DNA of 44,409 nt from Escherichia phage MirsaeidiM_Esher4. The position numbers and the translations under genes were made by a program. How positions within the stretch are numbered: position 1 is the first letter of the stretch; every line of letters starts with the position of its first letter. Location: sequence record PQ579973.1; one strand, 5' to 3'. Below, piece by piece: positions 1-44,141 of the stretch. Under the pieces are notes generated by a model. It was not told where the DNA came from and did no database searches. It saw only the letters and a program-made list of their open reading frames with translations.

Positions 1-55
1 AAAAACAAAAGGCCTGCGTACAGAGATGTAACTGTGTGGCATGGGTGGCAAAGGT
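1..55. repeat. Terminal direct repeat; identical to 44355..44409 (circular wrap or terminal redundancy)
   Basis: Bases 1-55 match bases 44355-44409 exactly on direct comparison; a reading frame continues across the junction. Confidence 0.9.
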
Positions 56-438
56 TTATGTCATTCCGTAAATGGTGGCTTTGTAATTATGTAGAGGGAT
101 GGGAACTAGATAAGGACATATTCTCCGGTATTAATAAGATATACAGTCCTACCACTTGCATTTTTATCCCGCAATGGTTGAATGTTTTTCTACAGGAAAA
201 GAAAAATAGTGGTTCACCCACCGGTGTTTTTTATGAAGAATCAAGAGGTAAATTTAAAGCATCAGTGAATTATGAGAAAAAAACTATTAATATAGGACGT
301 TTTGAAACTAAGGAAGAAGCGCTAGATGCCTACATTGCCGAAAAGATAAGGATAGCGGAATCAAGGAGATGTGAGATAGAGGCGATAAGAGAAGGTATGT
401 TCGACCGCGTTGTCGCCTTGATAAAAGAGGGGCGTTAG
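1..438 (+). CDS. AP2-domain protein, putative homing-endonuclease-like; C-terminal part of the gene that begins at 44142
   Basis: Frame is open from position 1 in phase with ATG 44142; AP2-like segment GVFYEESRGKFKASVNYEKKTINIGRFETKEEALDAYIAEK; no clear HNH motif seen; AT-richer than neighbours. Confidence 0.6.
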   Translation, partial: KNKRPAYRDVTVWHGWQRFMSFRKWWLCNYVEGWELDKDIFSGINKIYSPTTCIFIPQWLNVFLQEKKNSGSPTGVFYEESRGKFKASVNYEKKTINIGRFETKEEALDAYIAEKIRIAESRRCEIEAIREGMFDRVVALIKEGR

Positions 439-492
439 CTCGGAGGATGTAGGATGGCGTAAATATGGCCCGAAAGGGCCATATCTTTGTTA

Positions 493-2490
493 TCACTTAA
501 AGCCAGGTGCATTTCGCGTAGACTTGCGGGCCTTGCTAATCCGACTGTTGCTGTTCATTAGCTCAGAAGCCACCTGCTCAGAGATAATGATGCGCAGACG
601 CCCTTCATCATCCTGTTCAGTAGATACGTTGCCGATTTGTGCACTAGTGTTGTTAATGATGCTGATGTTAGCCGGGCCGCTGTTACCACTGCCTGACAGC
701 TCAGCCCGCGTCTGGCTTGCATTACTTGCACGACCGGCACCACCCATCTTAATAATCTCTGGACCACGTTCCCCGACAAGATAGCTACCGCCTGCGTTCA
801 TCTGCCCGCCCTGCTCACGCGCACCGCTAATCTTGGCGATGTTAGCCACACCTGCGGCAACTGCCAGACCGGCGGCAACCGGGGCTAGCGCCGGGCCAAC
901 AATCGGGATAGCTGCCGTGGACTTGTACGCCTCTATAGCTGCGGTGTAGGTGGCGATGGTCGCCTGGGTGATTGCGAACGCTTTATACGCGGCGGACGTT
1001 TCACCCAATGCGGATTTAGCATCGGCAGCCATGCTTCCGAACGCGTTGGCTGTAGCGTTAGCCTGCGCAATGTTGCTTTGCTCATTCAGCGCGGTAACTG
1101 CGTTGGCGTACTGTTCTTCGCTAATCAGCTTCTGTTTCAGGAAGTCATCCAGTTGCTTGAGTTTGGCGTCATTCTGCCGTTGGATTTCCTCGTACTCAGT
1201 GCCGCCAAGCGCTTGTAACTTCTGTAAATACACATCGGCGTTGTTGTAGAGGGCGTCCCGCTGTGCCTGAAACTCAGCCATGATGTCGCTTTTCGACTGC
1301 TCATACTCAGCGTCGCTTACCAGTTGCTTGTCATGGTATTCCTGCAACTTAGCTAGCTTCTGCTTCTCTTTAGCATCGATTTTGTCTAACTCGGTACCTG
1401 TGTTGGTATCGAGTTGCGCGATGAACTGGTCAGCGGCTTTCTGTGCGCTCTCCTGCGCTTTAGCCTCTGCTCGTGCCTGCGCGGACGCACGTTTCACGGC
1501 GGCAGCACTGATTCGATTCTGGCGGTCGATTTCCTTCTGCGCCCGGTCCGCTTTGTCCTTCTCGTATGTCTTCTCAGCCTGTTCTACGCCCTTACGTTCA
1601 GCGGCGCGTGTCTTCTCCTCTACGCCTAGGTAGTTCAGTTCATTACGCAGCTTGTTAAGCTCGATTTGCGCTTCCGGCGTCTTAGCTTTGATGCCGTCGA
1701 GGTACGCAATCAGTCCTTCACGAGCGCCCGGAACTCCAGCGGCGATAGCTTTCTGTGCGACCTCAATACTACGCATCTCTTTTGCGGTAAGTCCAGCGGC
1801 CTCTGCTGCTGCTTCGTACTGGAACGCCACCGCCCCAGCAGCATTACCGCCCTGCGCTATCTGCGACGCGGCAAGGTTGGTCGTAAGCTTCTGGAAGATG
1901 GACTGCGCCTTAGTCACCTTGTCGATTGCTTCTACAATCTTGTCAGCGGTAGCGTTGGCTTGCACGGCAGTAGCTTCCAGTGCCTTGTTGAGAAATGCCA
2001 TCTTCTCCGCCGTGGTAGCACCGATAGCGTCGAGCTTCTCCAGTGCGTCGTTCATTTCATACACGCCCGGCGTTGCTTCGTTCAGTGCATCATCGAGGAA
2101 CTTGGTCGCGTCTTCCAGTTCCTTTGCGGTGTCCTTCGCGTCGGACATCGAAGCGTATAGCGCGCCGCCGATAACCGTAGCCAGCGTCAACACAGTACCT
2201 GCAATCGGGTTAAACGCTGATACTAACTGGCTACCCTGCTGGGTGAACGCGGTGAGGGCCGATTGCCCGCCCTGAATCTGTACGATGAAGTCCTGTACCT
2301 GATATCCAGCGTTGCCGATGGACGCTTTGAGCGCGTTCATCTTCGGTGCCGCTGCCGATGTGGTGTCAGTCATCTTCTTGGTACTGGTATCCGCCTTACC
2401 CGCGGAACTGCTCAGGCTATCAAGCTGCTTGGCGGCCTGCTCTGCCCCGGTAGCCTGTACCTTTACGATTAAACTTGCGGTATCTGCCAT
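493..2490 (-). CDS. Tail tape measure protein
   Basis: Long Ala/Gln/Lys-rich coiled-coil-like protein with hydrophobic Gly/Ala C-terminal segment, downstream of tail chaperone ORFs. Start moved to ATG 2490 (MADTAS..., GAGGA RBS) from track start 2529. Confidence 0.85.
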   Translation of the reverse strand: MADTASLIVKVQATGAEQAAKQLDSLSSSAGKADTSTKKMTDTTSAAAPKMNALKASIGNAGYQVQDFIVQIQGGQSALTAFTQQGSQLVSAFNPIAGTVLTLATVIGGALYASMSDAKDTAKELEDATKFLDDALNEATPGVYEMNDALEKLDAIGATTAEKMAFLNKALEATAVQANATADKIVEAIDKVTKAQSIFQKLTTNLAASQIAQGGNAAGAVAFQYEAAAEAAGLTAKEMRSIEVAQKAIAAGVPGAREGLIAYLDGIKAKTPEAQIELNKLRNELNYLGVEEKTRAAERKGVEQAEKTYEKDKADRAQKEIDRQNRISAAAVKRASAQARAEAKAQESAQKAADQFIAQLDTNTGTELDKIDAKEKQKLAKLQEYHDKQLVSDAEYEQSKSDIMAEFQAQRDALYNNADVYLQKLQALGGTEYEEIQRQNDAKLKQLDDFLKQKLISEEQYANAVTALNEQSNIAQANATANAFGSMAADAKSALGETSAAYKAFAITQATIATYTAAIEAYKSTAAIPIVGPALAPVAAGLAVAAGVANIAKISGAREQGGQMNAGGSYLVGERGPEIIKMGGAGRASNASQTRAELSGSGNSGPANISIINNTSAQIGNVSTEQDDEGRLRIIISEQVASELMNSNSRISKARKSTRNAPGFK

Positions 2491-2491
2491 T

Positions 2492-2809
2492 CTATTCATC
2501 CTCGTTACGGCCTTCGAACAATGCGTCAAGGCCCATGATTAAATCCACCTCCAATAGCGTGAACGGTTGCTTGTGTAGTTCAGCATATGCTGTCAGGTGA
2601 TGGTATTGAAGCATCTCCCTCGGTATTAGTACGTTATTGCGACTTACAAACTTCAATGCGTAGTATTTGTCCATGATTCGCATCATATCAGCCGGGCATT
2701 CTGGAGGGTCTTCTTCCGGCTCTGGCGGGACTGGTAATCCCATCGCCGTCAAAGCCGCTTTGTGACCGTCCGCGATGGAGTCGAACTCCCGGCGCTTCTG
2801 ACGTATCAC
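2492..2809 (-). CDS. Putative tail assembly chaperone frameshift extension (GT-like)
   Basis: ORF in -1 frame relative to upstream chaperone ORF, open upstream across its stop, immediately before the tape measure gene. No slippery heptamer identified. Confidence 0.35.
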   Translation of the reverse strand: MIRQKRREFDSIADGHKAALTAMGLPVPPEPEEDPPECPADMMRIMDKYYALKFVSRNNVLIPREMLQYHHLTAYAELHKQPFTLLEVDLIMGLDALFEGRNEDE

Positions 2810-2841
2810 CCAGCGATACCGCGCATATTCGTAGAGCGCCT

Positions 2842-3258
2842 CTACTTTACCGACAGCGCTTTGCGGCTCTCTGCGTGATGCTGGGCCACTGCACCACCTA
2901 AGCCTTTGTATTCCTTGAGTAGTTTAACAAGCGCCTTCTTAGTGAACTTCTCGTCGAAGGACCAGCCTATCACTACAACGGCGGCAAGCGCATCATTCAG
3001 CTTCGCCAGTTCACTGTTCAACTCAGTGTTATATCTAGCCCAGTCGCCTTTCTCGCGGCACTCAGCGTCAAGCGGCTTCAGGTTGTCCAGGATGTCGCGA
3101 TAAGCAGAGATGAAGTCTTTAGCAGCTGCGATGGAGTCGTCGCAATCTGGCCCCATGACCTGTAGCCATTCGCCGGAATCGCTGCCGTCTGGCAACAGAA
3201 TCGGCATCTTGGTTCCTGCTGCGTGTTTGGACGCAAAGTAGAAGTCTGACAGTTTCAT
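2842..3258 (-). CDS. Tail assembly chaperone (G-like)
   Basis: 138-aa acidic protein directly upstream of tape measure gene; ATG 3258 with AAGGA RBS; assignment by position. Confidence 0.55.
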   Translation of the reverse strand: MKLSDFYFASKHAAGTKMPILLPDGSDSGEWLQVMGPDCDDSIAAAKDFISAYRDILDNLKPLDAECREKGDWARYNTELNSELAKLNDALAAVVVIGWSFDEKFTKKALVKLLKEYKGLGGAVAQHHAESRKALSVK

Positions 3259-3366
3259 TCTTTAATCCTTTGGTTAAGAGGTTGTTGGTTTGGCTTAAAT
3301 GCACCAGGCGGTAACCATCCGCTTTTCGTGCGCGACACTAGGTGCAAAATTATTCTAACACACTAC

Positions 3367-3399
3367 TTGCGCACCCAAATATAATAGGGTACTATTCAC
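3367..3399 (+). promoter_or_regulatory. Sigma70-like promoter (TTGCGC-N17-TACTAT) with overlapping operator ATAATAGGGTACTATTCAC
   Basis: Hexamers with 17-nt spacer upstream of ORF 3438; operator sequence recurs at 23525, 24825 and 28355-28420. Confidence 0.5.
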
Positions 3400-3437
3400 T
3401 TACACCAACAATGTTATCTCAAATAAGGAATTAACAA

Positions 3438-3764
3438 ATGCGTACATTAATCTTAGCTTTAGGTTTCATATCTTTTACTGCGGTAGGTTCCACTTGTGAG
3501 CAGATTTATTCTGAAACCCCATTAATAACTGCGGGTTTAATAGAAAGCGCCCCTGTAGCCGCGCAAAAAATGTTTAAAAATGCGGTTATTAAAGAATGTG
3601 AGGCCGCGTATTCAGCAGGAGCAGCAGGGGTTAGCTTCGACCTTGTAACAGGCCTTGTCATGAGTTCTGTGGACATGAAATCACCAGGCTACAGCAGCGC
3701 ATTGGTGGCTACTCGCTTACAAATCGTCTCTCTAGCTTGGGCGGCGGGAGTGGAAAGTAAATAG
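3438..3764 (+). CDS. Small secreted protein of unknown function
   Basis: N-terminal signal-peptide-like segment MRTLILALGFISFTAVGSTC; two Cys in mature part; AT-rich codon usage; own operator-controlled promoter; opposite strand to surrounding tail genes. Confidence 0.6.
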   Translation: MRTLILALGFISFTAVGSTCEQIYSETPLITAGLIESAPVAAQKMFKNAVIKECEAAYSAGAAGVSFDLVTGLVMSSVDMKSPGYSSALVATRLQIVSLAWAAGVESK

Positions 3765-3808
3765 CTATTGTAGTTAAATAAGACAAATCCTAAACACGAG
3801 GAATAAGC

Positions 3809-4939
3809 ATGGCCAGGAAGAAAATAACCGACGAACAGTTACAGGAAGAATTGAACGCCGGTATGAAGAATATCGACATCGCCCGTAAATACGGCATCTC
3901 CGACCGCGTTATTCGTATCCGTAAAGCGAAGCTGGCTAAGAAAGGTGTAGGCCACGGGCGTGACGTTAGTTACCTTGTACCGGACGGCTACAAGATTAAA
4001 GGAACGTCATCACTGGTGGATGAGTTTGGCAACACCAAGTTGCAATGGGTTAAGACCGACACCGATGCCGAACGTCAGGTTGAATTGATGAAAGCCGTAA
4101 TCGAAGGCATGAAGTCGGAGATTACACCAGTTGCACCTGTTAAAGCCGTTCGCGCCAAACGAGACGACAAGCTACTCAACCTTTACACTGTGTCTGATTT
4201 CCATCTCGGTATGCTGGCCTGGGCTGACGAGAGCGGCGACGACTGGGACATGAAGATTGCGGAAGACCTGTTCTCCCGCTGGTTCGACGCAGCGTTCCAG
4301 AAAGCACCGGATGCCGGAACAGGAGTTATTAATCTGCTGGGCGACCTTGCGCATTTCGATAGTCTGGACGCCGTTACACCTGCCAGTGGTCATGTTCTTG
4401 ACGCTGACACCCGCTATCAGAAACTTGTACGCTACATGATTCGTATGGTCCGCCGTGTCATTGATATGGCTCTCGTTAAACATAAAAATGTTCGCTTGCT
4501 TATCGTGCAAGGTAACCACGACGAAAGCGGAATGATTTGGTTAGCTGAGATGTTTAGTACGCTGTACGACAATGAGCCGCGTGTGTTCGTCGATACGTCG
4601 CCGGATGTTTACAAGATGGTGCAACACGGCAAAACGACGCTGTTCTTCCATCATGGGCATAAAGCACGATTCGACGCTATCGAACCGGTTATGATCGCCA
4701 AGTTCCGCAAAGCGTTCGGCGAGAGTGTTTACAGCTACGCCCACGTGGGTCACCTGCACCACCAAAAGATTATAGAAAGCCGTAACATGATTGTTGAGCA
4801 ACACCGCACTCTCGCGGCTAAAGATGCATATGCCTCCCGCGGTGGGTGGATGTCGGGCCGCAGTGCAAACGTAATTACTTATAGCGCCGAATATGGCGAG
4901 GTCGCACGTTTAACTATTTCACCGGAGATGCTTGGATGA
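3809..4939 (+). CDS. HTH-domain calcineurin-like metallophosphoesterase (possible nuclease or phosphatase)
   Basis: N-terminal HTH-like region IDIARKYGISDRVIRIRKAKL; metallophosphoesterase motifs VSDFH, LLGDLAH, VQGNHDE, FFHHGH, VGHLHH. Confidence 0.75.
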   Translation: MARKKITDEQLQEELNAGMKNIDIARKYGISDRVIRIRKAKLAKKGVGHGRDVSYLVPDGYKIKGTSSLVDEFGNTKLQWVKTDTDAERQVELMKAVIEGMKSEITPVAPVKAVRAKRDDKLLNLYTVSDFHLGMLAWADESGDDWDMKIAEDLFSRWFDAAFQKAPDAGTGVINLLGDLAHFDSLDAVTPASGHVLDADTRYQKLVRYMIRMVRRVIDMALVKHKNVRLLIVQGNHDESGMIWLAEMFSTLYDNEPRVFVDTSPDVYKMVQHGKTTLFFHHGHKARFDAIEPVMIAKFRKAFGESVYSYAHVGHLHHQKIIESRNMIVEQHRTLAAKDAYASRGGWMSGRSANVITYSAEYGEVARLTISPEMLG

Positions 4940-5421
4940 AAGATATTGTGATTTTCGATTTAGACGGGACATTGGCAGATGGTACTCATCGTTTACACCT
5001 GCTGCCGAAAGATAACTACGGCGAAACCTGGGCGTGGAAACCATTTAACATGGCGTGCAAAGACGATGCACCCATTAAAGATAACATCGAACTGTGTAAC
5101 GCCCTTAATCGTCGCTATGCCGTTATTATCTTAACAGGCCGTAGTGATGACGCGGAAAAAGAAACCAGAATGTGGTTGCAGCGCCACCGCGTCGAATTTT
5201 ATCAGTTAATCATGCGCAAAAAACACGACAACAGAAAAGACATCGTAATTAAAGAAGAGGTGTTGCGTGCTATTGGGCCGGAGAGAATCTTGTGTGCATT
5301 CGACGACTCTCCAGCGGTAATAAAGCATTTCCGCGAACTCGGCATAACCACTCACGCAGTTACTGAATACGACTGTAACGGGAACTCTACACACTTAAAA
5401 CCACATGGGAGTGATAAATAA
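4936..5421 (+). CDS. HAD-superfamily phosphatase (nucleotidase or polynucleotide 3'-phosphatase-like)
   Basis: HAD motif I FDLDGTL near N-terminus, later ILTGR and FDDS segments; start overlaps upstream stop (ATGA). Confidence 0.7.
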   Translation: MKDIVIFDLDGTLADGTHRLHLLPKDNYGETWAWKPFNMACKDDAPIKDNIELCNALNRRYAVIILTGRSDDAEKETRMWLQRHRVEFYQLIMRKKHDNRKDIVIKEEVLRAIGPERILCAFDDSPAVIKHFRELGITTHAVTEYDCNGNSTHLKPHGSDK

Positions 5422-5975
5422 TGGCTAAGGTAATTATTCTTAATGGTCCTGCGGGCTGCGGGAAAGACACACTTGCTAGGGCGCTGGTAGAAATGGGCTT
5501 TGCGAAGGGTGTCGCCAGTTTCAAGAATCCGATGTTCAATATTGCTATGGCCGCGTTAGGCCGGGATGCTTACCGCGAGTTTCTCGACGGCTACGACGAC
5601 CGGGCGCGGAAAGAAAAGCCAGAGGGTTTCCTTAACGGGTTGTCTCGGCGTCAGTTCATGATTGCCATTTCCGAGCAATTCATTAAACCGGTATTCGGTG
5701 ATGATTATTTCGGTAAGTATCTTGCCGGAAACTTGCCCGACGGCGACGAAGTTTTTGTGGTGTCTGATGGCGGGTTCGCCAGCGAAGTAACCCCTATCGT
5801 TGCCGCGGGGCATGATGTGAGAATCGTCCGCTTGCACAGAGACGGCCATACGTTTGAAGGGGACAGCCGCGGTTACCTGTACGATATTGATGGTGTAAAA
5901 GATTATGACACCTACATCATACCGGGTTACGTTAAATCGAACGCTATAGGCATTGCTTTAAGATTAGGTTTGTAA
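5421..5975 (+). CDS. P-loop kinase, dNMP kinase-like
   Basis: Walker A GPAGCGKDT with GKDT signature and overall resemblance to phage deoxynucleoside monophosphate kinases; start overlaps upstream stop. Confidence 0.6.
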   Translation: MAKVIILNGPAGCGKDTLARALVEMGFAKGVASFKNPMFNIAMAALGRDAYREFLDGYDDRARKEKPEGFLNGLSRRQFMIAISEQFIKPVFGDDYFGKYLAGNLPDGDEVFVVSDGGFASEVTPIVAAGHDVRIVRLHRDGHTFEGDSRGYLYDIDGVKDYDTYIIPGYVKSNAIGIALRLGL

Positions 5976-5977
5976 GA

Positions 5978-6003
5978 AAAAGGCCCCAAACGGGGCCTTA
6001 GTT
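5978..6003. terminator. Bidirectional intrinsic terminator hairpin
   Basis: GGCCCC-AAAC-GGGGCC stem-loop with T/A-rich runs on both sides, between convergent genes. Confidence 0.6.
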
Positions 6004-7170
6004 TTATGCGTATGTGATGCGCTGAATAACAATAGACGACTGGTACTGGTTGCCGGTAGCCTGGCCTTCAATAGACTGAGTGATTGACTCAGGTCCTCCA
6101 ATCTCAGGTGTAACCGCCGTAAGTTCTGCACGTTTCAAACTGAAAGACATAGCCCCGTTTACCCCAGCCAGAATAGAGTTAATCTCCACCTGCTGCTCGT
6201 TGATAAACTTCTGAATCATCGCCATGTCGTACAGCTTACCGGAGATGGAGAAGGTGTTAGCTGCTCGGCTACGCTCCACAAACGCTACGTTAGTGTTGCC
6301 GAGTTCGAACTGTGCGGACGCGCTGTTGTCGTTGGTGATAGTAAGGCTATCACAACGCAACGGCGTAGAGCCATCGAACACGGAAACGTCAACCGAAGAG
6401 AACGGCTCATCACCAAAAGTAACAGATGAGAAGTTGGAACCGGTCGGCGGCGTAGTGAGAATCTCCTGACTGCGACCGATGAATGGGAAGCTGCCAGTTA
6501 CCATCGCGTTAACAGCCTGTTCGATGGTAAAACCAGAAACTTCCACGCCTTTGGTTAACGTGTACGCGTCAGTACCGCCGCACTGGCCTTTGTACCAGGT
6601 AAGGATAGAGAACGTCTTACACGTGTTACCGGTTTCCAGCGTGTCGCCGGTTTTAGCCTTACTAGTTTTTGTCTCGGTGGTCAGGGTGTGTTGGATGCCC
6701 GCACCGGTAACAACCGTAGCCGTTACTGCAGTAACAATAAATGGTTTTGCGTTATCGCCTGTTAAATCGGTAAATGCAATCAGGTCGCCTACCCCAACTC
6801 CGTCAGTGATAAAACTGCCGGTAGCGCGTGTGAACGTCTTGCCCGCGGGCAAGACGGTAATCGACAGACTGGACAGGGAAACACCGGATTGCCACGTAGA
6901 GCCTAAAGCACCAGCCAGCCAGTCATCCTGGCTTTTCGAGCTAAGCTCGATCGCGTATTCACCGCTAACCTGTTTGTTACCGGTGCGGATGGATGTAGTT
7001 TCACGGCTGCCGTCCAGTTCGTTGGAGGTCAGCGTGTCGCGGGTAATGGCAGGAACACCGCCAGTGTTACGCAACGGTGACCAGACCGGGTTAGTCGGTG
7101 TTACGCCCGGGGTGACTTCCGCCACATAGAATTGCGCGGTATTCGCGCCCTTAAAAGGAGTTGTAGCCAT
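6004..7170 (-). CDS. Major tail protein
   Basis: Thr/Ser/Gly-rich beta-type protein upstream of chaperone and tape measure genes; start moved to ATG 7170 (AAGAGG RBS). Confidence 0.7.
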   Translation of the reverse strand: MATTPFKGANTAQFYVAEVTPGVTPTNPVWSPLRNTGGVPAITRDTLTSNELDGSRETTSIRTGNKQVSGEYAIELSSKSQDDWLAGALGSTWQSGVSLSSLSITVLPAGKTFTRATGSFITDGVGVGDLIAFTDLTGDNAKPFIVTAVTATVVTGAGIQHTLTTETKTSKAKTGDTLETGNTCKTFSILTWYKGQCGGTDAYTLTKGVEVSGFTIEQAVNAMVTGSFPFIGRSQEILTTPPTGSNFSSVTFGDEPFSSVDVSVFDGSTPLRCDSLTITNDNSASAQFELGNTNVAFVERSRAANTFSISGKLYDMAMIQKFINEQQVEINSILAGVNGAMSFSLKRAELTAVTPEIGGPESITQSIEGQATGNQYQSSIVIQRITYA

Positions 7171-7172
7171 AT

Positions 7173-7589
7173 TCACAGCCTCTTGGTGAATGCAATAAAG
7201 TTAATTGACAATGGTCGTTTGGCCCATCCGTTTTCTACAATCAGCGGCCCCAGGCTAACCGATTGAACCTCGGCGCAGATGTCGTTACGTGAAAATGACT
7301 TACCTGCTTTAAACGCCGTGTTAAGTAAGTCTGCCATTTTATTGATTGGCGCGCTACCTTTCACCGATGCGTAGTTAATGTCTACCTGATAAACACCGGC
7401 GCGTTGTTCCGTGAAGAACAAATCCGCCTGTTCCGTATCCGCAAGTAACATGTAACTTGCCAGATATGGCGTATCGGTTGACGTCGGCGCGTCGATGTTT
7501 TCAAGCGCGACCTTGATGCCGTTGGCGGTTCCGAAGGCTACCAGCGGCACATCAAACGCTTTTGTTAAGTCCTCAAAGTAGCCCATCAT
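7173..7589 (-). CDS. Tail completion or terminator-like protein
   Basis: Small protein directly upstream of major tail gene, ATGA-coupled to neighbours; assignment by position. Confidence 0.45.
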   Translation of the reverse strand: MMGYFEDLTKAFDVPLVAFGTANGIKVALENIDAPTSTDTPYLASYMLLADTEQADLFFTEQRAGVYQVDINYASVKGSAPINKMADLLNTAFKAGKSFSRNDICAEVQSVSLGPLIVENGWAKRPLSINFIAFTKRL

Positions 7590-7981
7590 TTCACCTTGTT
7601 GGCTTCTTCGTTAATGAGTTGCTGGAAGCGAGACACATTAGTCCTGACAACCCCGGCTGGCGCCTGTTGCGACCAACCATACTCCAGCCGTTGCGCATAC
7701 GGCAGATTATTTGTCAGCGTGAACTCATGCCAGTCAGCGGCTTTCAGCACGAAACTCGTAGCGTTTCCGGTTGCTGTGTTTCCTGATTTATCCGTAGCGT
7801 CCGTAATCCCGGAAGCAGGAGTACCGCCAGATGCCATCCAGTTCATACGAAAGCGGCCCGTGTCTACCGGACTCGCCTTTATAATAGCGGAAAACAGCTT
7901 GATAGACACCTGACGCATCACCTTCTCAGGGTTCTTCTTCGCCTTTTCCACGAACTTAGAGACATCGAGCGCGAAACTCAT
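7586..7981 (-). CDS. Neck or head-tail joining protein
   Basis: Position in head-tail joining block; translationally coupled; weak resemblance to HK97 gp10-type proteins. Confidence 0.45.
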   Translation of the reverse strand: MSFALDVSKFVEKAKKNPEKVMRQVSIKLFSAIIKASPVDTGRFRMNWMASGGTPASGITDATDKSGNTATGNATSFVLKAADWHEFTLTNNLPYAQRLEYGWSQQAPAGVVRTNVSRFQQLINEEANKVK

Positions 7982-8337
7982 TTTCTCACCTGAATAAAGT
8001 ACGCCACGACGTCATCGTTAACCATCTTCTTCTCAATAGCTACGATGGACCATTGCTCGCCGCCGAATTGCACCTTGTCTTCCATCTTCGGAACGACGCT
8101 GTAATCGGCTTTAACAATCATGTCGCCAGCCTGAATCGTCGTACCGTTTACCAGTCCCGCGTTTACCGGAACCGGAACGGCCTTCAACTGCAACACTTCA
8201 TCCGCAGACCAGACGTACTCACCGAGAACTTCATCCCATACTTTTGAACCAGCGCGAATCAGAGATACCGTGCTACCGAATTTGGTTAGCAGGCGCGTAC
8301 CCACGCCTTGCATACGTTTACTGAAAGCGGTGCTCAT
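7978..8337 (-). CDS. Head closure or head-tail joining protein
   Basis: Start moved to ATG 8337 (AAGAGGTG RBS) from track start 8418, which lacks an RBS; assignment by position. Confidence 0.4.
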   Translation of the reverse strand: MSTAFSKRMQGVGTRLLTKFGSTVSLIRAGSKVWDEVLGEYVWSADEVLQLKAVPVPVNAGLVNGTTIQAGDMIVKADYSVVPKMEDKVQFGGEQWSIVAIEKKMVNDDVVAYFIQVRK

Positions 8338-8431
8338 TTTAGCACCTCTTGCAGCGTCAAAAGAACACCGTAACTGTGCAAGACTACCGCGGTAAGAAAA
8401 CCAAAAACTACACCACATGTGAACTTATTCA

Positions 8432-9046
8432 TCAAGCGGCCTCCAGTCTCGAAATAACCAGTAGCGCGGACGGTGCTGTGTCCCATGCTGTTACGGTAGC
8501 GGCTTGTGGGTACACGCCGCCGAAGTTGCTTCCGGCACCATCCCGCATAATCTGAACGGCAAACGTCCGGCCTGCTGCGGGGTTAATAACGACGCGGGAT
8601 TCAATCGGGATTGTAGTATCAGCACTTACCAGTTTAGTAGCTGCTGGCGAGCCGTACTGTGCGCCGTTAAGAAGAATGCGCGATAACAGGACGGACGTCC
8701 CGCTCGCTCCAGTGCGCCCCGCCTGTAACTTGATGCGAACGGTGTAGTTGCCCGCAGTGTTGAACGTAACCAGACCCGCTGCATTAATCATTACCGGGTC
8801 AGATGCGCTACCCTGCGCGGGACCGAAAGTTAACTGCAATGCTGTGGCCACTGCGGATGGTGCTTGTATTACAGTGGACGCGGCACGGAGAACTTCAACC
8901 TCTTTCACCCCGGGAGTGGCATAGATAGGCGAATCTGCCATCTGCGTCATTACCTCGCGCAATGCGGCTGGGGTGATAAGACCGGTAGTGTTATCGGGAA
9001 GATTTGCACCGATTAGCGTGAATATCTCTGATTTAGTCTTCGCCAT
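8432..9046 (-). CDS. Virion structural protein, function unassigned
   Basis: 204-aa Ala/Thr/Gly-rich protein within the connector block. Confidence 0.4.
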   Translation of the reverse strand: MAKTKSEIFTLIGANLPDNTTGLITPAALREVMTQMADSPIYATPGVKEVEVLRAASTVIQAPSAVATALQLTFGPAQGSASDPVMINAAGLVTFNTAGNYTVRIKLQAGRTGASGTSVLLSRILLNGAQYGSPAATKLVSADTTIPIESRVVINPAAGRTFAVQIMRDGAGSNFGGVYPQAATVTAWDTAPSALLVISRLEAA

Positions 9047-21271: not shown

Positions 21272-21760
21272 TCAACCTTTCACCGCACGCCCGATTGCCT
21301 CAGCCTCCTGCCACGGTTTACCGTCGAACAATGCCAGACGTCCTGCGGTACGGCGACGCAGGCCAAGTAACGGTTTGCCGTTCTGGTTGATGAACAGCGC
21401 CAGCTTAGCCCGCAGCGTCGTAATATCACCCGAACGCAGCGCCTTACCGGTTCCGGTAGTAGCTGCTATCACACCAGCACCTGCGTTATAGACCAGGTCG
21501 CACACAGCGTCGAACTGTGCCTGTGTCAGTGAATGGTGTGCTGCTGCATCGACCGCAGCTACGGCCTTAGCCATATCGCGATTCAGTAACAGGAGGCCCT
21601 GACCCGGAGTGATGGTCTTTCCGGGCGTTACGTCCGGTCCGTAGTGCCCGTAGCCAATAGTCAGGTACTTCTCGTTCGACGTAGCACGATACGCAGTTCC
21701 ACGGAACCCCTCGAACGCGGCGGTAAAATGCAATCCATTATCTGAAATGTTTCGAGACAC
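21272..21760 (-). CDS. Endolysin, phage lysozyme (GH24-like)
   Basis: Motifs AAFEGFRGTAY...TIGYGH and GLRRRTAGRLALF typical of phage lysozymes; start moved to GTG 21760 (GGAGGG RBS) from TTG track start 21811. Confidence 0.8.
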   Translation of the reverse strand: MSRNISDNGLHFTAAFEGFRGTAYRATSNEKYLTIGYGHYGPDVTPGKTITPGQGLLLLNRDMAKAVAAVDAAAHHSLTQAQFDAVCDLVYNAGAGVIAATTGTGKALRSGDITTLRAKLALFINQNGKPLLGLRRRTAGRLALFDGKPWQEAEAIGRAVKG

Positions 21761-22010
21761 GCTTATGCCCTCCGTATGACAGCCACGCCTGGCGAATCTG
21801 GCGCAGCGCAACTAATGTGATTAACGTCTCAGGCAGCGTAGGCGACATGCTGCCCTGTAACAGGTGGATACACCCGGCGGCGCAGACGATAGCGGTCAGG
21901 ATATAGAGCACCCTACCAAATAGCCCGTCATCCACGCTCGGATGGTATACATTAAACAGCGATGTGCCGCCGATTGCCAGCATACCGCCGAACCAGAATA
22001 ACTCATTCAT
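21738..22010 (-). CDS. Holin-like or antiholin-like membrane protein
   Basis: About 90 aa with two hydrophobic helices; ATG 22010 with GAGGAGG RBS; between holin and endolysin. Confidence 0.5.
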   Translation of the reverse strand: MNELFWFGGMLAIGGTSLFNVYHPSVDDGLFGRVLYILTAIVCAAGCIHLLQGSMSPTLPETLITLVALRQIRQAWLSYGGHKRVSKHFR

Positions 22011-22311
22011 CTGTGCCTCCTCGACGTGCGATGTATTCTCCGGCGACGATACCGGAGAGACGGGAATAGATAGGCATCCAGAGAATAGCGATGATGAAGC
22101 CAAGGCCAGCGATTTCACGGTCGCCCGTGATACCGAACCATTGAGCCGCGAGAGGTGCGCCAAATACAGCGCAGGCGAAACCAGTAGCAATAAAGCAGAA
22201 TCCGTCGATAGGGCCAGAAATAACGGACTTATGTTGTCGTAGTCCGATGACCCCTCCGGCGAGTGCGGCAGCGAGAAGCCAGCCTGTCACTGTTTCAGTA
22301 AATTTATCCAA
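22003..22311 (-). CDS. Holin (putative, multi-TMD)
   Basis: 102 aa with about three hydrophobic helices and charged C-terminus, upstream of endolysin. Confidence 0.55.
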   Translation of the reverse strand: MDKFTETVTGWLLAAALAGGVIGLRQHKSVISGPIDGFCFIATGFACAVFGAPLAAQWFGITGDREIAGLGFIIAILWMPIYSRLSGIVAGEYIARRGGTDE

Positions 22312-37056: not shown

Positions 37057-37190
37057 ACATCATGTCCCCGACTCCGGCATTGCAAAAACGTATCAAGGAA
37101 CTTGAGGAGGAGGTTCTACGACTACGGCAGCAAAGAGACGCCGCTAATGCACAACTGGCGTTCATACTGGAGAAGTTATCTGAAGGGTAG
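37053..37190 (+). CDS. Small coiled-coil protein (45 aa, below cutoff)
   Basis: ATG overlapping helicase stop; heptad-like sequence. Confidence 0.3.
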   Translation: MNIMSPTPALQKRIKELEEEVLRLRQQRDAANAQLAFILEKLSEG

Positions 37191-37195
37191 AGAAA

Positions 37196-37215
37196 AGGCC
37201 CCGTTTGGGGCCTTA
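37196..37215. terminator. Bidirectional intrinsic terminator where the two transcription arms converge
   Basis: AGGCCCC-GTTT-GGGGCCT hairpin flanked by A-run and T-run. Confidence 0.65.
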
Positions 37216-37218
37216 GTT

Positions 37219-40173
37219 TTATTTATCTTCTAGTGCTGCCAGCCTCTTCTCGAACTCGCGCATCTTCTTACGCTGATAGGCAATCTCTATGAAGAACATC
37301 TGGTCCGCCCTAACCCCCCATCTGCCGCCGGGAGGGGATACTTGTACAGTCTGGCCATCTTCATCAATATCATACGCAGCTTCAATTGGGTCGTAGCACA
37401 AGAAAGCATATTTACAATCGGTAGAATCTTTCTCCATAAGCCCATGGTTGACCAAGATGTCTCGCACATCTTGGGCTATCACACCGAAGTGTATCCTTGC
37501 AGTGTCACCCTTGATTGCTAGGCTTTCAAGCCACTTAAAAGATATTACATGTATATCTTCCCATGCGGTAAGGAGTTGTCCCTCAATTTCCTCTTTATTC
37601 GTCTTAAGTGTACCATCAGACGTGTTTATCGTACCGGTGGTCGCGTACACCGTAGTCCACCTATTACCTGCCGAACCTAAAGACACTTGCGAGTCTAAGT
37701 AAGGAAGGAAATTGTTGTATGAGTAGAAGCCTCCTGACGCATACATAATAGCCCTGTTAGGCGTTGCATGGTTTACCCCGTACAGTTGCAGCAACGCACC
37801 ATCGGAACTGGATGCACCATCACCACCGCTAACTATCAGTCTTTGACCCGATGGGGTTTTAGTGGGGACTGTTTTTGAAATCAGCCCGTAATCACCATCA
37901 AACCGTGCACGCACGGCAGACTGTTGTGTACCATCGTATTCCAGCCCCGTTACATGCAGGGAGTACACGCTTACATCATTGTCAAACGTTAAAGGTGCTT
38001 CTACATGGCGTACACCATCTACCCCCATGGCGACAGGTATTGTACGGTTAGGAGTTGCCCCGTATTTGAAATCACGTGATACGTACGGGTGGTCTTCAAT
38101 CTTTATCCGGTAGCTATATAAGTCAGCCGGATGCCCATCATGTTTGTACCATAACTTCGCACTGTTATCCCCTATGCTCCAGGGAGAGAAGAAGTCTTCC
38201 CCACCAAAGATATAGTACAACCAGCCATCTTTAACACAGACCGAGCCGACGCCGACAGCAGAGTTAACGATATGACCCTGGTATATTTGGTCGGTAATAT
38301 TAAACCACTGAACATCATCTAAAGATGAAGGCCAGGACGACACATTAACTTTGCACATAAAGGTCCTCGGATACGAACCTTCATAGCGGCTGTCCTGCTC
38401 ACCACCTTCCCACTCACCAAAGGCACGTTCTGTACCAAAGATGTAGAGATAGTCACCTACTTTAGCGAACGGAAGATTGGAGTGATGTACATTGTTCGGA
38501 AATCGCAAGTAGCTCCAGTTTTGCCCAGAATCGGTGCTCATCGCCAGTGTAGAGCCAGGGGAAGTAGGTAATGTGCCGCGTGTGGTAAGGTATAACACAC
38601 CACCATAACTTTTCACGCACGGCTCAGAAGCGTTATCAGCGTATGCCTGAGCGACAGTGCGACGAACGAATACGCCTGGATTATCATACACGTTACTAAA
38701 ATACAAGACACCGAGACGCCGAGGGGACACATCGCCGTTGTGATAGCCGACAGCGATAGTGTAGTTAACATCATCTATAACCGCAAAACTATGTGTCTCC
38801 GTGACACACAAATCAGCGTTAGTGGAGTATGCTACCCCAGGCAATTCGGTAATTTCCCACGGGCTGTCCCAGAATCTCGTTGCGAAGTTCCAGGTAACAC
38901 CTGCATTGTTTATGGTGGAACTCGCCGGGCTTGAGAGCGTAACAGTGATCGTATTTCGGTTAATTATAGACGAAACCGTCATATTACCCGATACGCCAGT
39001 TGCCGATGTATTAGAGAAGTTAACCGCATCTCCTGCTTTTAGGCCATGATTTTCTATGACAATGGTAGCAGTAGTGGAGCCAGAACTAATAGTTATTCCG
39101 CCGGTTGGGTGTCTAAAATACGGCATTGGGCGTGACCAAAGTTCTGCCTTCTTCATCCGCATATTAGATAAGTAGCGGGTTTCTATAACTGCATATAATC
39201 GGTTGCCGCACGTACCCATGCTCATGCAGTGGTAGTTAACTCTGTCCGTAGAAACACTAGCATTATAGTCAGCATGGATTGGAGTCAACCACTCAGGCAT
39301 TGACCAAGTCTGCCCGTCGTCTCCAGAGCGAACCCAAGCTACATGTAAGTTTTGAACGCCATGTCGTTCGCCTGCCATAAACGGAGCGTAAATAACATTG
39401 TCGTAGACGAAAGTTTTATCCTGCGTCCATGCGTTGTAGAACGGGGTATCCGTCACCTTAGTTAGTGAGCTGTTAAAGAAGCCATCAGCTACATAAGTAA
39501 GCGGTTGCCCGGCTACGCGCTCGTAAACGAATGCAGCATTCTTAAATTTACTAATGTCGGGTAATTGGGAAACTTTATAAGTCAAGCCCCTGCAGTCTAT
39601 AATCCAATTGTTGGGTGAAGCGGCTAATACATTAAAAATAGATTGGGTATCATCAGTTACGCCGTCGCCCACGGCGCCCCATGCGCGCGGGTCGTATTCG
39701 TCCTTCCATCGCGCCACATGTAAATCTGGGTACAGAATTGCGCCGTTCGCATTAGATATTTGCTGCCTCAGTACGACCGACCCGGCGCGTTGCCATGCCC
39801 CTTCGGACACGCCTCCTGTAGACTGCGGAGAAGATGACGCCGGGATAGTTTTTGGCAGAGCGCCCAACCAATAGTACCAATCCCCGTCACCGCCAGAGGA
39901 CGACGGCCACAAAACTGCGGTGTTTCGGTCGTTAGCGGATAGTGTACCGCCTGACGTGAAATCAAAATCTGCCAGTTTAAAACCAGCATCACGCAACACT
40001 GCAGGTAACGTCTTCTGGGTCTGTCCAGTAACCTTATTTGTCGCGTAATCAATATCGGCACCACCGGCGACACCGCCGGATTTGCCAGTGATAACCTCGG
40101 CTTCAAAAATTTGGTGTTTCTTGGCGGTCTGTAAATCCGCCAGGCTTAAAACGTCACCGCATCCGCTTGACAT
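37219..40173 (-). CDS. Tailspike or tail fibre protein with C-terminal intramolecular chaperone (peptidase S74-like) domain
   Basis: 984 aa; C-terminal region (DGTLKTNKEEIEGQ...HFGVIAQDV...) resembles auto-cleaving chaperone domains of endosialidase-type tailspikes; AAGAGGA RBS. Confidence 0.75.
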   Translation of the reverse strand: MSSGCGDVLSLADLQTAKKHQIFEAEVITGKSGGVAGGADIDYATNKVTGQTQKTLPAVLRDAGFKLADFDFTSGGTLSANDRNTAVLWPSSSGGDGDWYYWLGALPKTIPASSSPQSTGGVSEGAWQRAGSVVLRQQISNANGAILYPDLHVARWKDEYDPRAWGAVGDGVTDDTQSIFNVLAASPNNWIIDCRGLTYKVSQLPDISKFKNAAFVYERVAGQPLTYVADGFFNSSLTKVTDTPFYNAWTQDKTFVYDNVIYAPFMAGERHGVQNLHVAWVRSGDDGQTWSMPEWLTPIHADYNASVSTDRVNYHCMSMGTCGNRLYAVIETRYLSNMRMKKAELWSRPMPYFRHPTGGITISSGSTTATIVIENHGLKAGDAVNFSNTSATGVSGNMTVSSIINRNTITVTLSSPASSTINNAGVTWNFATRFWDSPWEITELPGVAYSTNADLCVTETHSFAVIDDVNYTIAVGYHNGDVSPRRLGVLYFSNVYDNPGVFVRRTVAQAYADNASEPCVKSYGGVLYLTTRGTLPTSPGSTLAMSTDSGQNWSYLRFPNNVHHSNLPFAKVGDYLYIFGTERAFGEWEGGEQDSRYEGSYPRTFMCKVNVSSWPSSLDDVQWFNITDQIYQGHIVNSAVGVGSVCVKDGWLYYIFGGEDFFSPWSIGDNSAKLWYKHDGHPADLYSYRIKIEDHPYVSRDFKYGATPNRTIPVAMGVDGVRHVEAPLTFDNDVSVYSLHVTGLEYDGTQQSAVRARFDGDYGLISKTVPTKTPSGQRLIVSGGDGASSSDGALLQLYGVNHATPNRAIMYASGGFYSYNNFLPYLDSQVSLGSAGNRWTTVYATTGTINTSDGTLKTNKEEIEGQLLTAWEDIHVISFKWLESLAIKGDTARIHFGVIAQDVRDILVNHGLMEKDSTDCKYAFLCYDPIEAAYDIDEDGQTVQVSPPGGRWGVRADQMFFIEIAYQRKKMREFEKRLAALEDK

Positions 40174-40185
40174 ATAGAGTCCTCT

Positions 40186-44106: not shown

Positions 44107-44141
44107 AGTAAGATACTCCTATTATTTTAGGAGATACTAAC

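What the first reader, a model, noticed from the sequence alone, without database searches (positions are those of the whole stretch)
3438..3764. AT-rich signal-peptide protein with private promoter amid tail genes: candidate superinfection-exclusion factor
The ORF has a clear N-terminal signal-peptide-like segment, markedly AT-rich codon usage (tta, ata, aaa) unlike its neighbours, and sits directly behind an operator-regulated promoter on the strand opposite the tail genes. Small secreted or lipoprotein genes beside tail genes in siphoviruses often block the phage's own receptor. The cleavage site is not a canonical lipobox.
Basis: inference. Interest (0 to 1): 0.45.

Follow-up and report, generated by a model that had tools for sequence, protein, structure and literature searches.

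The report
Exported small phage protein, candidate exclusion factor
A real 108-residue gene of a K1H-like E. coli phage encodes a small helical protein exported to the periplasm; in most related phages the same genome position holds a T4 Imm-type superinfection-immunity gene, so it is a reasonable but untested candidate for a new family of proteins that stop a second phage from injecting its DNA.

Summary
The ORF (3438-3764, +) is real. It has full-length homologues in about 98 isolated phages and matches phrog_14165 (function unknown). dN/dS among close alleles is about 0.05.

It has a Sec-type signal peptide with a likely signal peptidase I site (AVG|S) and no lipobox. The mature part has two invariant cysteines and a confident all-helical model with no match to a solved fold. 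Ten distant homologues carry a canonical lipobox instead.

The window is a K1H-like Kagunavirus, a group whose receptor is a surface glycan. In every context examined the gene is the first gene transcribed divergently from the tail assembly chaperone genes.

In 35 loci found through the chaperone gene, the position holds this family (12), a T4 Imm-family gene (16), or neither (7), and never both. Two Jerseyviruses with 95% identical tape measure proteins differ by a clean swap of one gene for the other.

In the window the gene was replaced together with the tape measure and chaperone genes. Similarity to K1H returns to 98-99% five bases after its stop codon.

Best reading: an entry-blocking exclusion protein acting in the periplasm, comparable to T4 Spackle or HK97 gp15 rather than a receptor blocker. 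This is unproven. The "operator" is not supported; those repeats overlap a covarying three-stem element resembling Rfam int-alpA on the other strand.

The parts
3438..3764 (+). ORF108 coding sequence: 108 aa precursor, member of the uncharacterised phage family phrog_14165
3438..3488 (+). Predicted Sec signal peptide (residues 1-17, MRTLILALGFISFTAVG), likely cleaved by signal peptidase I before Ser18. No lipobox.
   Evidence: rule-based; family alignment; pLDDT below 50 for residues 1-15
3489..3761 (+). Predicted mature periplasmic domain: 91 aa, 9.4 kDa, pI 4.9, all-helical. Invariant Cys20 and Cys54; conserved motifs CEQ-I/V-F/Y-SET, ECExA and ATRxQ...GW.
3425..3429 (+). Shine-Dalgarno sequence AAGGA, 8 nt before the ATG
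   Evidence: read directly from the sequence
3367..3395 (+). Weak candidate promoter for the + strand block: TTGCGC, 17-nt spacer, TACTAT. The hexamers are conserved in Kagunavirus and Jerseyvirus. An alternative -10, TATAAT at 3380-3385, lies inside the interval. Inferred only.
   Evidence: alignment of 9 relatives. The consensus scan found nothing.
3809..5975 (+). Downstream genes of the same + strand block, probably co-transcribed: metallophosphoesterase (3809-4939), HAD/PNKP-type phosphatase (4936-5421), P-loop kinase-like protein (5421-5975)
   Evidence: No terminator between 3764 and 3809.
493..3258 (-). Tape measure protein (493-2529) and the two tail assembly chaperone ORFs (2492-2809, 2842-3258). 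This is the module that was replaced together with ORF108 relative to phage K1H.
3765..3768 (.). Right-hand recombination breakpoint. To its left ORF108 shows no detectable nucleotide similarity to K1H. From 3769 onward identity is 98-99%.
3296..3347 (-). Conserved, covarying three-stem element (resembles Rfam int-alpA) in the shared intergenic region, on the chaperone-gene strand. It is not shown to regulate ORF108.

Best explanation
ORF108 encodes a small accessory protein that the Sec pathway exports to the periplasm of the infected cell. Signal peptidase I probably removes the signal peptide, and a Cys20-Cys54 disulfide probably stabilises a compact helical domain.

It is transcribed from the divergent intergenic region ahead of a nucleotide and DNA-end-processing gene block, that is, with non-structural genes.

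Most likely function: superinfection exclusion at the genome-entry step. From the periplasmic side it would stop the tail tip or tape measure protein of a later-arriving related phage from opening a DNA channel. This is the job attributed to the inner-membrane Imm-family protein that occupies the same position in most sister phages.

Shown here: the gene is real and under constraint; the export signal; the absence of a lipobox; the helical model; the conserved position; the mutually exclusive swap with Imm; the joint replacement with the tape measure and chaperone genes.

Inferred: signal peptide cleavage, the disulfide, the timing of expression, the exclusion function and its target.
For: 1. 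Export. The signal-peptide layout is conserved in all 22 family members. Ten distant members (P0009, P0013-P0021) instead carry a canonical lipobox with Ser at +2, so the domain works outside the cytoplasm whether soluble or lipid-anchored.

2. The position is shared with a known exclusion family.
- In K1G, EC3-1 and others the gene between the same conserved intergenic region and the same metallophosphoesterase gene is a 63-aa protein matching Pfam Imm_superinfect (E 7.5e-13) and phrog_1039.
- Of 35 loci found through the chaperone gene, 12 hold this family, 16 hold Imm, 7 hold neither and none holds both.
- Among isolated phages about 349 records carry the Imm type and about 98 carry this family.

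3. Clean cassette exchange. Jerseyvirus loci L029 and L031 have 95% identical tape measure proteins and 84-90% identical flanks. They differ only from just after the -10 region to the stop codon, where one has this family and the other has Imm.

4. Other occupants of the position are also envelope proteins. L046 has an unrelated 107-aa protein with a signal peptide and two cysteines. L011 has a 65-aa protein with two transmembrane segments next to a lipoprotein member of this family.

5. Link to the DNA-delivery module.
- The gene is next to the chaperone genes in all 8 distinct contexts, although the proteins are only 25-60% identical and the downstream genes differ.
- The window is 95-99% identical to K1H nearly everywhere, except a block holding exactly the tape measure, chaperone and ORF108 genes plus an HNH endonuclease gene.
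- Allele divergence tracks chaperone ORF 1 (rho 0.86) but not the metallophosphoesterase 45 nt downstream (rho 0.12).

6. Precedents. T4 uses Imm together with the periplasmic, helical, disulfide-bonded Spackle (PMC7677548). HK97 gp15 is an exclusion gene lying between the chaperone and tape measure genes, and its effect depends on the tail region of the incoming phage (PMC3594210).

7. Low GC3 (z = -2.06) fits a mobile accessory gene.
Against: - The Imm-family gene of Guernseyvirinae is itself annotated by homology only. One transcriptome paper places it in a late class (PMC12645636).
- The position is not reserved for envelope proteins. L023, L025 and L026 hold a phrog_1273 protein without a signal peptide, and L027 holds nothing.
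- Joint inheritance with the tape measure and chaperone genes may reflect adjacency alone. The L029/L031 case shows the gene can swap independently of them.
- There are only about six independent allele lineages, so the correlations are not independent tests.
- The mature protein is rather hydrophobic (GRAVY +0.43), so it may stay membrane-associated.
- No exclusion phenotype has been tested for any family member. Literature searches found none.
Confidence: 0.45

Rival explanations
1. It regulates lysis timing. This would be a periplasmic antiholin or lysis-inhibition factor in the manner of T4 RI, or a modulator of spanins or endolysin, rather than a block to incoming DNA.
For: It is a small exported helical protein of a virulent phage, the same general architecture as T4 RI (own knowledge). 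T4 spackle mutants also change lysis behaviour (PMC7677548). Nothing in the sequence excludes this.
Against: The lysis genes lie elsewhere and look complete: holin and endolysin at 21272-22190, and spanins annotated in K1H between the head genes. ORF108 is never next to them in the 8 contexts examined. Its alternative at the same position is an Imm-family protein. No lysis-related PHROG or Pfam match was found.
Confidence: 0.13
2. It masks the receptor. The protein would interfere in the periplasm with export or assembly of the capsule or O-antigen, or block an unknown outer-membrane secondary receptor as Cor and Llp do. Later phages, or progeny released at lysis, would then fail to adsorb.
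For: Distant homologues are predicted outer-membrane lipoproteins (lipobox, Ser at +2), like T5 Llp and Cor. Kagunavirus infection depends on glycans (PMC11990801).
Against: The family occurs unchanged in kind in phages that use K1 capsule, O16 antigen or Salmonella O-antigen, so the target cannot be glycan-specific. The gene is not next to the tailspike gene (37219-40173). In the window the tailspike is 96% identical to that of K1H while ORF108 is only 45% identical, so the allele does not follow receptor specificity. No protein receptor is known for this group. The window protein has no lipid anchor.
Confidence: 0.1
3. It is some other envelope-directed accessory function. Examples are neutralising a periplasmic or membrane-associated host defence, or remodelling the envelope for the phage's own benefit. 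The shared position with Imm would then only reflect a general site for accessory gene cassettes.
For: The position also holds unrelated genes (phrog_1273 without a signal peptide, an unrelated exported protein in L046, or nothing), as expected of a generic cassette site behind a conserved promoter. The downstream genes (metallophosphoesterase, PNKP-type phosphatase, kinase) resemble repair or counter-defence functions.
Against: No match to known defence or anti-defence families (one Tad3 match at E 0.058 in 1 of 8 members is at chance level). The strict either/or pattern with Imm across two genera, and the conserved adjacency to the chaperone genes over 25-60% protein identity, are not explained by a generic cassette site.
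Confidence: 0.2
4. It is a chance ORF or a decaying remnant with no function.
For: It is short and AT-rich, with no annotated function anywhere.
Against: The full-length family is conserved down to about 25% identity with invariant Cys, Gly and Trp columns. dN/dS is 0.05. It has a good Shine-Dalgarno sequence. The AlphaFold2 model is confident (pLDDT about 88 for the mature part) and superposes on the K1H homologue model at TM-score 0.82.
Confidence: 0.02

Closest known systems
T4 Spackle (gp61.3), the periplasmic partner of Imm in T4 superinfection exclusion
   Same: Both are small precursors (97 vs 108 aa) with a cleavable signal peptide and an acidic mature domain. Both are helical bundles with one cysteine pair, the first cysteine lying near the mature N-terminus. 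Both are paired, conceptually, with an Imm-family protein (PMC7677548).
T4 Imm family (Pfam PF14373, phrog_1039), as found in K1G and most Guernseyvirinae
   Same: Identical genomic position, the same conserved upstream region and the same downstream gene. Mutually exclusive and cleanly interchangeable.
   Different: Imm is a 59-68 aa inner-membrane protein with two transmembrane segments. ORF108 is a secreted 91-aa helical domain. There is no sequence relationship.
HK97 gp15 (moron-encoded exclusion protein, YebO-like)
   Same: Both are small envelope proteins encoded beside the tail assembly chaperone and tape measure genes. gp15 exclusion depends on the tail region of the incoming phage (PMC3594210), which parallels the joint inheritance of ORF108 with the tape measure and chaperone genes.
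   Different: gp15 is an inner-membrane protein of a temperate phage, expressed from the prophage. It is unrelated in sequence. ORF108 belongs to a virulent phage and is divergently transcribed.
Lipoprotein exclusion factors: T5 Llp, Cor of phi80/N15/T1, Ltp of TP-J34
   Same: All are small exported phage proteins. Ten distant members of the ORF108 family are predicted lipoproteins. Ltp is reported to target the tape measure protein (Bebeacua 2013, cited in PMC3952083).
   Different: The window protein has no lipobox. There is no homology. Llp and Cor block a protein receptor (FhuA) and lie next to receptor-binding genes, whereas Guernseyvirinae use glycan receptors.
phrog_14165 (uncharacterised phage protein family; K1H ORF18, G AB-2017 G_9)
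   Same: Full-length match at E 2e-24, same length and same genomic position.
   Different: The window allele is only 45-47% identical to any isolate in the phage collection and 58% identical to its nearest metagenomic relative. The family has no assigned function.

Membership tests
phrog_14165 (uncharacterised phage family) | Full-length match to the family profile | tested here: met
   E 2e-24, residues 1-108 against profile positions 1-109. The lipoprotein forms and the L014 protein also match.
Sec-exported protein with a signal peptidase I site | Positively charged n-region, hydrophobic h-region of at least 10 residues, small residues at -3 and -1, and no further transmembrane segment | tested here: met
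   Rule-based check only: Arg2, an 18-residue uncharged stretch, AVG|S, later Kyte-Doolittle 19-residue maximum 1.41. The layout is conserved in 22 homologues. SignalP and DeepTMHMM were not available.
Bacterial lipoprotein | Lipobox matching PROSITE PS51257, [LVI][ASTVI][GAS]C, at the end of the signal peptide | tested here: not met
   No match in the window protein; the residues before Cys20 are G-S-T. Ten distant homologues do match, with Cys17 and Ser at +2.
Imm_superinfect (PF14373) | Match to the Pfam profile; small protein with two transmembrane segments | tested here: not met
   No Pfam match even at E up to 10. Only the genomic position is equivalent.
T4 Spackle | Sequence or fold similarity to gp61.3 | tested here: not met
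T4 Spackle | Binds and inhibits a tail-associated lysozyme | not testable with these tools
   No lysozyme domain was found in the window's tape measure protein. The other virion proteins were not searched exhaustively.
DUF3718 (the annotation carried by the homologue in Salmonella phage S4lw) | Match to the Pfam DUF3718 profile | tested here: not met
   No Pfam match at E up to 10 for the window protein, for the S4lw protein itself, or for 11 other members. A profile-profile comparison was not possible because no DUF3718 sequences were at hand.
Cor / Llp receptor-blocking lipoproteins | Lipid anchor, a gene next to the receptor-binding gene, and a protein receptor to block | tested here: not met
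   No lipobox. The gene is next to the chaperone genes, not the tailspike gene. The receptor is a glycan (PMC11990801). No PHROG or Pfam match.
Moron (independent accessory transcription unit) | Own promoter and terminator, with base composition unlike the neighbours | tested here: inconclusive
   GC3 is low (z = -2.06). A promoter is required by the gene's orientation, but only weak hexamers were found. No terminator follows the gene in the window. In L013 and L053 the homologue is followed by a strong terminator.
Superinfection exclusion protein (functional class) | Expression reduces infection by the same or related phages at adsorption or DNA entry | not testable with these tools
   An experiment is required. 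No published test of any family member was found.

The most novel reading that the evidence does not exclude
phrog_14165 is a previously unrecognised family of periplasmic, or in some phages outer-membrane-lipoprotein, superinfection-exclusion proteins of Guernseyvirinae-like siphoviruses. It would be functionally interchangeable with the inner-membrane Imm protein and matched to the tape measure and chaperone module it travels with. That would make it a siphovirus counterpart of T4 Spackle, acting on the tape measure protein or tail tip of incoming phages.
Probability: 0.35. Interest if true: 0.6.

Novelty: new variant of a known kind. Interest (0 to 1): 0.42.

Why it matters
Kagunaviruses and Jerseyviruses are widely isolated for therapy against E. 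coli K1, uropathogenic E. coli and Salmonella. Exclusion genes decide whether the phages in a cocktail interfere with one another.

If this family excludes superinfection, about a fifth of the Guernseyvirinae records counted here would use a different, periplasmic exclusion device from the Imm type carried by the rest (about 98 against about 349 records). The natural Imm-for-this-family swaps on nearly identical genomes provide ready-made comparison pairs.

Its joint inheritance with the tape measure gene would also offer a handle on how glycan-dependent siphoviruses cross the periplasm, a step that is poorly understood.

If it is not an exclusion factor, it is still a conserved exported protein of unknown role in a medically used group of phages.

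Tried and rejected
- **Pfam, NCBIfam and PADLOC scans** of the protein and of 8-22 homologues gave nothing meaningful. The 'DUF3718' and 'glycoprotein precursor' labels on homologues in GenBank records could not be reproduced.
- **Word-indexed search of 5.8 billion proteins.** The single sequence found only itself. Two profile searches found 17 and 27 clusters, all unnamed and all on phage-sized contigs.
- **Exhaustive phmmer against 1.84 billion representatives** gave 8 hits. One of them, a eukaryotic sushi-repeat protein (P0007), is spurious.
- **Scan of one genome per bacterial species** with family motifs found no relative. An earlier attempt failed because the alignment was too diverse.
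- **Direct profile comparison with T4 Spackle** showed no relationship.
- **Consensus promoter scans** in the window and three relatives found no + strand promoter above chance.
- **The operator idea** was rejected because the inverted repeat is not conserved as a repeat.
- **A lysis role** was considered unlikely because the holin, endolysin and spanin genes lie elsewhere.
- **Diversifying selection within an allele type** was not seen (dN/dS 0.05, or 0.22 in one Jerseyvirus pair).
- **MAFFT misaligned the 3' half of the intergenic RNA-like element**, so I used per-sequence folding instead.
Full report
**1. What is at the coordinates**

The window holds an ATG-initiated ORF of 108 codons at 3438-3764 on the + strand. 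A Shine-Dalgarno sequence AAGGA lies at 3425-3429.

To the left, on the - strand, are:
- the two tail assembly chaperone ORFs (2842-3258, Pfam Phage_TAC_4; 2492-2809, Phage_TAC_18);
- the tape measure gene (493-2529).

To the right, on the + strand, are:
- a metallophosphoesterase gene (3809-4939);
- a HAD/PNKP-type phosphatase gene (4936-5421);
- a P-loop kinase-like gene (5421-5975).

The major tail gene follows on the - strand at 6004-7176. ORF108 is therefore the first gene of a four-gene block set in reverse orientation inside the tail gene cluster.

**2. The gene is real**

- The identical protein is encoded on at least 7 public contigs, always in the same phage context. One is labelled 'hypothetical protein MLO98_23690 [Escherichia coli]'.
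- tblastn finds full-length homologues in 98 isolated phages. None is more than 47% identical.
- The protein matches phrog_14165, function unknown, over its whole length at E 2e-24.
- Among nine K1H-type alleles, dN/dS is 0.05. That is within the range of the flanking genes, 0.01-0.08.

**3. The protein**

*Signal peptide.*
- Residues 1-17 (MRTLILALGFISFTAVG) have a charged n-region and a hydrophobic core (Kyte-Doolittle 12-residue maximum 2.34).
- The -3/-1 pattern is A-V-G.
- No later segment reaches transmembrane hydrophobicity; the maximum is 1.41.
- All family members share this layout, although the N-terminal sequence and length vary.

*Lipobox.*
- The PROSITE lipobox pattern does not match the window protein.
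- It does match ten distant members (P0009, P0013-P0021), which have ...LGC|SY or ...IGC|SY with Ser at +2.
- In the alignment the window's LALGFISF lines up with their AVLGCSYV. The family therefore exists in a soluble form and in a lipid-anchored form.

*Mature domain.*
- It is 91 aa, 9.4 kDa, pI 4.9 and fairly hydrophobic, GRAVY +0.43.
- Cys20 and Cys54 are invariant.
- Conserved motifs are CEQ-I/V-F/Y-SET, ECExA and ATRxQ...GW..G.

*Structure.*
- AlphaFold2 on a 16-sequence alignment gives an all-helical model with mean pLDDT 80.
- pLDDT is about 88 once the disordered residues 1-15 are excluded.
- The model superposes on the BFVD model of the K1H homologue at TM-score 0.82.
- I could not inspect coordinates, so the disulfide is inferred from the invariant cysteine pair and the periplasmic location.

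*Family searches.*
- Pfam, NCBIfam and PADLOC give nothing for any member.
- This includes the S4lw protein that its GenBank record calls 'DUF3718'.
- Exhaustive and profile searches find only a few dozen clusters. All are unnamed and lie on contigs of at most 45 kb.
- A scan of one genome per bacterial species found none.
- In these searches the family appears only in phages and phage-sized contigs.

**4. What phage this is**

- The flanks match Kagunavirus phages.
- Compared with the whole K1H genome, the window is 95-99% identical over most of its length. This includes the 984-aa tailspike gene and the distal tail genes (37085-44076, 96%) and the stretch 3769-8477 (98.4%).
- According to the BASEL extension paper, Guernseyvirinae use surface glycans as terminal receptor: K1 capsule for K1G, O16 antigen for Bas70-76, and O-antigen for Salmonella Jerseyviruses (PMC11990801).

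**5. The position is a swappable cassette site**

*What sister phages carry.*
- In K1G, EC3-1 and many others, a 63-aa gene lies between the same intergenic region and the same metallophosphoesterase gene.
- It encodes a protein with two transmembrane segments that matches Pfam Imm_superinfect (E 7.5e-13) and phrog_1039 'immunity to superinfection'.

*Counts in loci found through the chaperone gene.* I fetched 35 IMG/VR loci using the chaperone protein as anchor and classified the position with profile searches.

| Occupant | Loci |
|---|---|
| This family (one match weak) | 12 |
| Imm family | 16 |
| Neither | 7 |
| Both | 0 |

Of the seven with neither:
- L028 and L045 lacked enough flank to judge.
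- L023, L025 and L026 hold a phrog_1273 protein without a signal peptide.
- L046 holds an unrelated 107-aa protein with a signal peptide and two cysteines.
- L027 holds no ORF.

*Isolated phages.* About 349 records carry the Imm type and about 98 carry this family.

*A clean swap.*
- Jerseyvirus loci L029 and L031 have 95% identical tape measure proteins and 84-90% identical flanks.
- They differ only between the -10 region and the stop codon of the slot gene. One carries this family (330 nt) and the other carries Imm (180 nt).

**6. Link to the tape measure and chaperone module**

- In all eight distinct contexts the gene is the first (in L011 the second) gene transcribed divergently from the chaperone genes.
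- These contexts are the window, K1H type, Jerseyvirus, L010, L011, L013, L052 and L053.
- This holds although the proteins are only 25-60% identical and the downstream genes differ or are absent.
- In L013 the gene stands alone, followed by a strong bidirectional terminator.

*The replaced block.*
- The only large region where the window departs from K1H runs from about 44077, across the window ends, to 3768.
- It holds an HNH endonuclease gene (34-438), a short ORF at 44127-44405, the tape measure gene, both chaperone ORFs, the intergenic region and ORF108.
- Protein identities to K1H inside the block are 41-57%. They are 99-100% for the next four genes.
- The right-hand breakpoint lies within five bases of the ORF108 stop codon.
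- Contig L004 carries an identical tape measure gene, chaperone genes and ORF108, but different genes to the right.

*Across loci.*
- Clusters of tape measure or chaperone proteins at 80% identity or more each carry a single slot type: Imm 12/12, K1H type 7/7, window type 4/4, phrog_1273 3/3. The Jerseyvirus cluster is the exception.
- Pairwise divergence of this family tracks chaperone ORF 1 (Spearman 0.86). It does not track the metallophosphoesterase 45 nt downstream (0.12).

*Caveats.*
- There are only about six independent lineages.
- The genes are adjacent.
- The Jerseyvirus swap shows that the coupling is not obligatory.

An earlier study of the Smith and Huggins phages also listed the chaperone and the 'superinfection immunity protein' among the few genes separating phage P from phages G and L (PMC5582158).

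**7. Promoter and 'operator'**

*Promoter.*
- The consensus scan finds no sigma-70 promoter in 3100-3950.
- The gene's orientation requires a promoter within 3259-3437.
- An alignment of nine relatives shows the intergenic region is far better conserved (81% mean identity) than the flanking coding sequence.
- It contains TTGCRC, a 17-nt spacer and TAYTAT, conserved in both genera. In the window these lie at 3367-3372 and 3390-3395.
- A TATAAT at 3380-3385 is specific to Kagunavirus.
- These promoter assignments are inference.
- The promoter would serve the whole + strand block, not ORF108 alone.

*'Operator'.*
- The inverted repeat GTGCGC/GCGCAC is not maintained as a repeat in relatives.
- Its left arm lies inside a conserved element on the - strand (3296-3347).
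- That element gives sub-threshold matches to Rfam int-alpA (RF02996): 28.2 bits in the window and 31.6-34.2 bits in relatives, against a gathering score of 35.8.
- Eight of eleven distinct versions fold on their own into the same outer stem enclosing two hairpins.
- The outer stem covaries completely:
  - GCACC/GGUGC (window)
  - GCGCC/GGCGC
  - GCGUC/GACGC
  - GCCGUGAA/UUCACGGC
  - GCCUCCGA/UCGGAGGC
  - GCCGAGGA/UCCUCGGC
- It lies 40-90 nt upstream of the chaperone start codon, so it may be the leader of the chaperone and tape measure mRNA. This is a side observation, not a demonstrated regulator of ORF108.

**8. Codon usage**

- GC3 is 0.385 against a window mean of 0.533 (z = -2.06). That is the 4th lowest of 61 ORFs; the HNH gene is lowest.
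- The bias is strongest in the first 40 codons.
- Other alleles of the family also have low GC3, 0.36-0.47.

**9. Interpretation**

The secure conclusions are these:
- ORF108 encodes a conserved, exported, helical protein with two cysteines.
- The family appears only in phages.
- The gene sits at a cassette position beside the DNA-delivery genes.

The best functional inference is superinfection exclusion at the entry step. Four points support it:
- The alternative occupant of the position belongs to the Imm family.
- T4 pairs Imm with a periplasmic, helical, disulfide-bonded protein, Spackle (PMC7677548).
- HK97 gp15 is an exclusion gene between the chaperone and tape measure genes whose effect depends on the tail region of the incoming phage (PMC3594210).
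- Lipoprotein forms recall Llp, Cor and Ltp. Ltp is reported to target the tape measure protein (cited in PMC3952083).

Receptor blocking is less likely, for three reasons:
- The receptors are glycans of several kinds.
- The window's tailspike is 96% identical to that of K1H while ORF108 is only 45% identical.
- The gene lies away from the tailspike gene.

There is no homology to any of these precedents, so membership in any of them is not claimed. The Imm gene of these phages has not been tested either. The only transcriptome paper found places it in a late class (PMC12645636). Overall confidence in exclusion is about 0.45. The rivals are lysis timing, receptor masking and some other envelope-directed function.

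**10. Verdict**

- The gene is a divergent member of an existing but uncharacterised phage family.
- If the exclusion reading holds, it would be a new family within a known functional class.
- Interest is moderate. Natural Imm-for-this-family swaps make the hypothesis easy to test, but nothing here is mechanistically surprising.

Noticed in passing
window 3296-3347 (- strand); homologous positions in L001-L003, L010, L011, L023, L029-L031, L046: A conserved three-stem element lies in the intergenic region between the chaperone gene and ORF108. It gives sub-threshold matches to Rfam int-alpA (RF02996): 28-34 bits against a gathering score of 35.8. The outer stem covaries completely across lineages, and the single-stranded motifs CUAG, CGAAAAGCG and UGGUUA are conserved. 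It sits 40-90 nt upstream of the chaperone start codon and may be the leader of the chaperone and tape measure mRNA.
   Followed up: partly
window 3352-3360 (- strand): A possible extended -10 promoter (TGTTAGAAT) points toward the chaperone genes, immediately upstream of the three-stem element. The TAGAAT hexamer is conserved in Kagunavirus relatives. It overlaps the candidate + strand promoter back to back. Inference from sequence only.
   Followed up: no
window about 44077-44409 plus 1-3768: Relative to phage K1H, which is 95-99% identical elsewhere, this block has been replaced by a divergent module. It holds the tape measure gene, both chaperone ORFs and ORF108. The window ends are adjacent in K1H coordinates, so the window looks like a circularly permuted complete genome.
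   Followed up: yes
window 493-2529 (-): The tape measure protein is only 678 aa, against about 760-775 aa in K1H, K1G and Jerseyvirus relatives. This predicts a noticeably shorter tail.
   Followed up: no
window 34-438 (+): An HNH homing endonuclease gene (phrog_953, E 1e-38) sits next to the end of the tape measure gene, at the left edge of the replaced block. It has the lowest GC3 in the window (0.378). It may have helped mobilise the module.
   Followed up: no
L046 3515-3838 (-); L011 5790-5987 (+); L023 2386-2688 (-): The same position holds other cassettes in other phages. L046 has an unrelated 107-aa protein with a signal peptide and two cysteines. L011 has a 65-aa protein with two transmembrane segments upstream of a lipoprotein member of the family. 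L023, L025 and L026 have a phrog_1273 protein without a signal peptide.
   Followed up: partly
L013 5200-5219; L053 4479-4500: In distant relatives the homologue forms a unit of one or two genes that ends in a strong GC-rich terminator. In L013 the terminator reads as bidirectional; in L053 the scan reports it on the + strand only. This is moron-like; the window has no such terminator after ORF108.
   Followed up: no
L050 (Salmonella phage S4lw, OQ660438.1) 1201-1530; PV696613.1 and PQ571306.1: Public records label homologues 'DUF3718 domain-containing protein' or 'glycoprotein precursor'. Neither label could be reproduced with Pfam hmmscan.
   Followed up: yes
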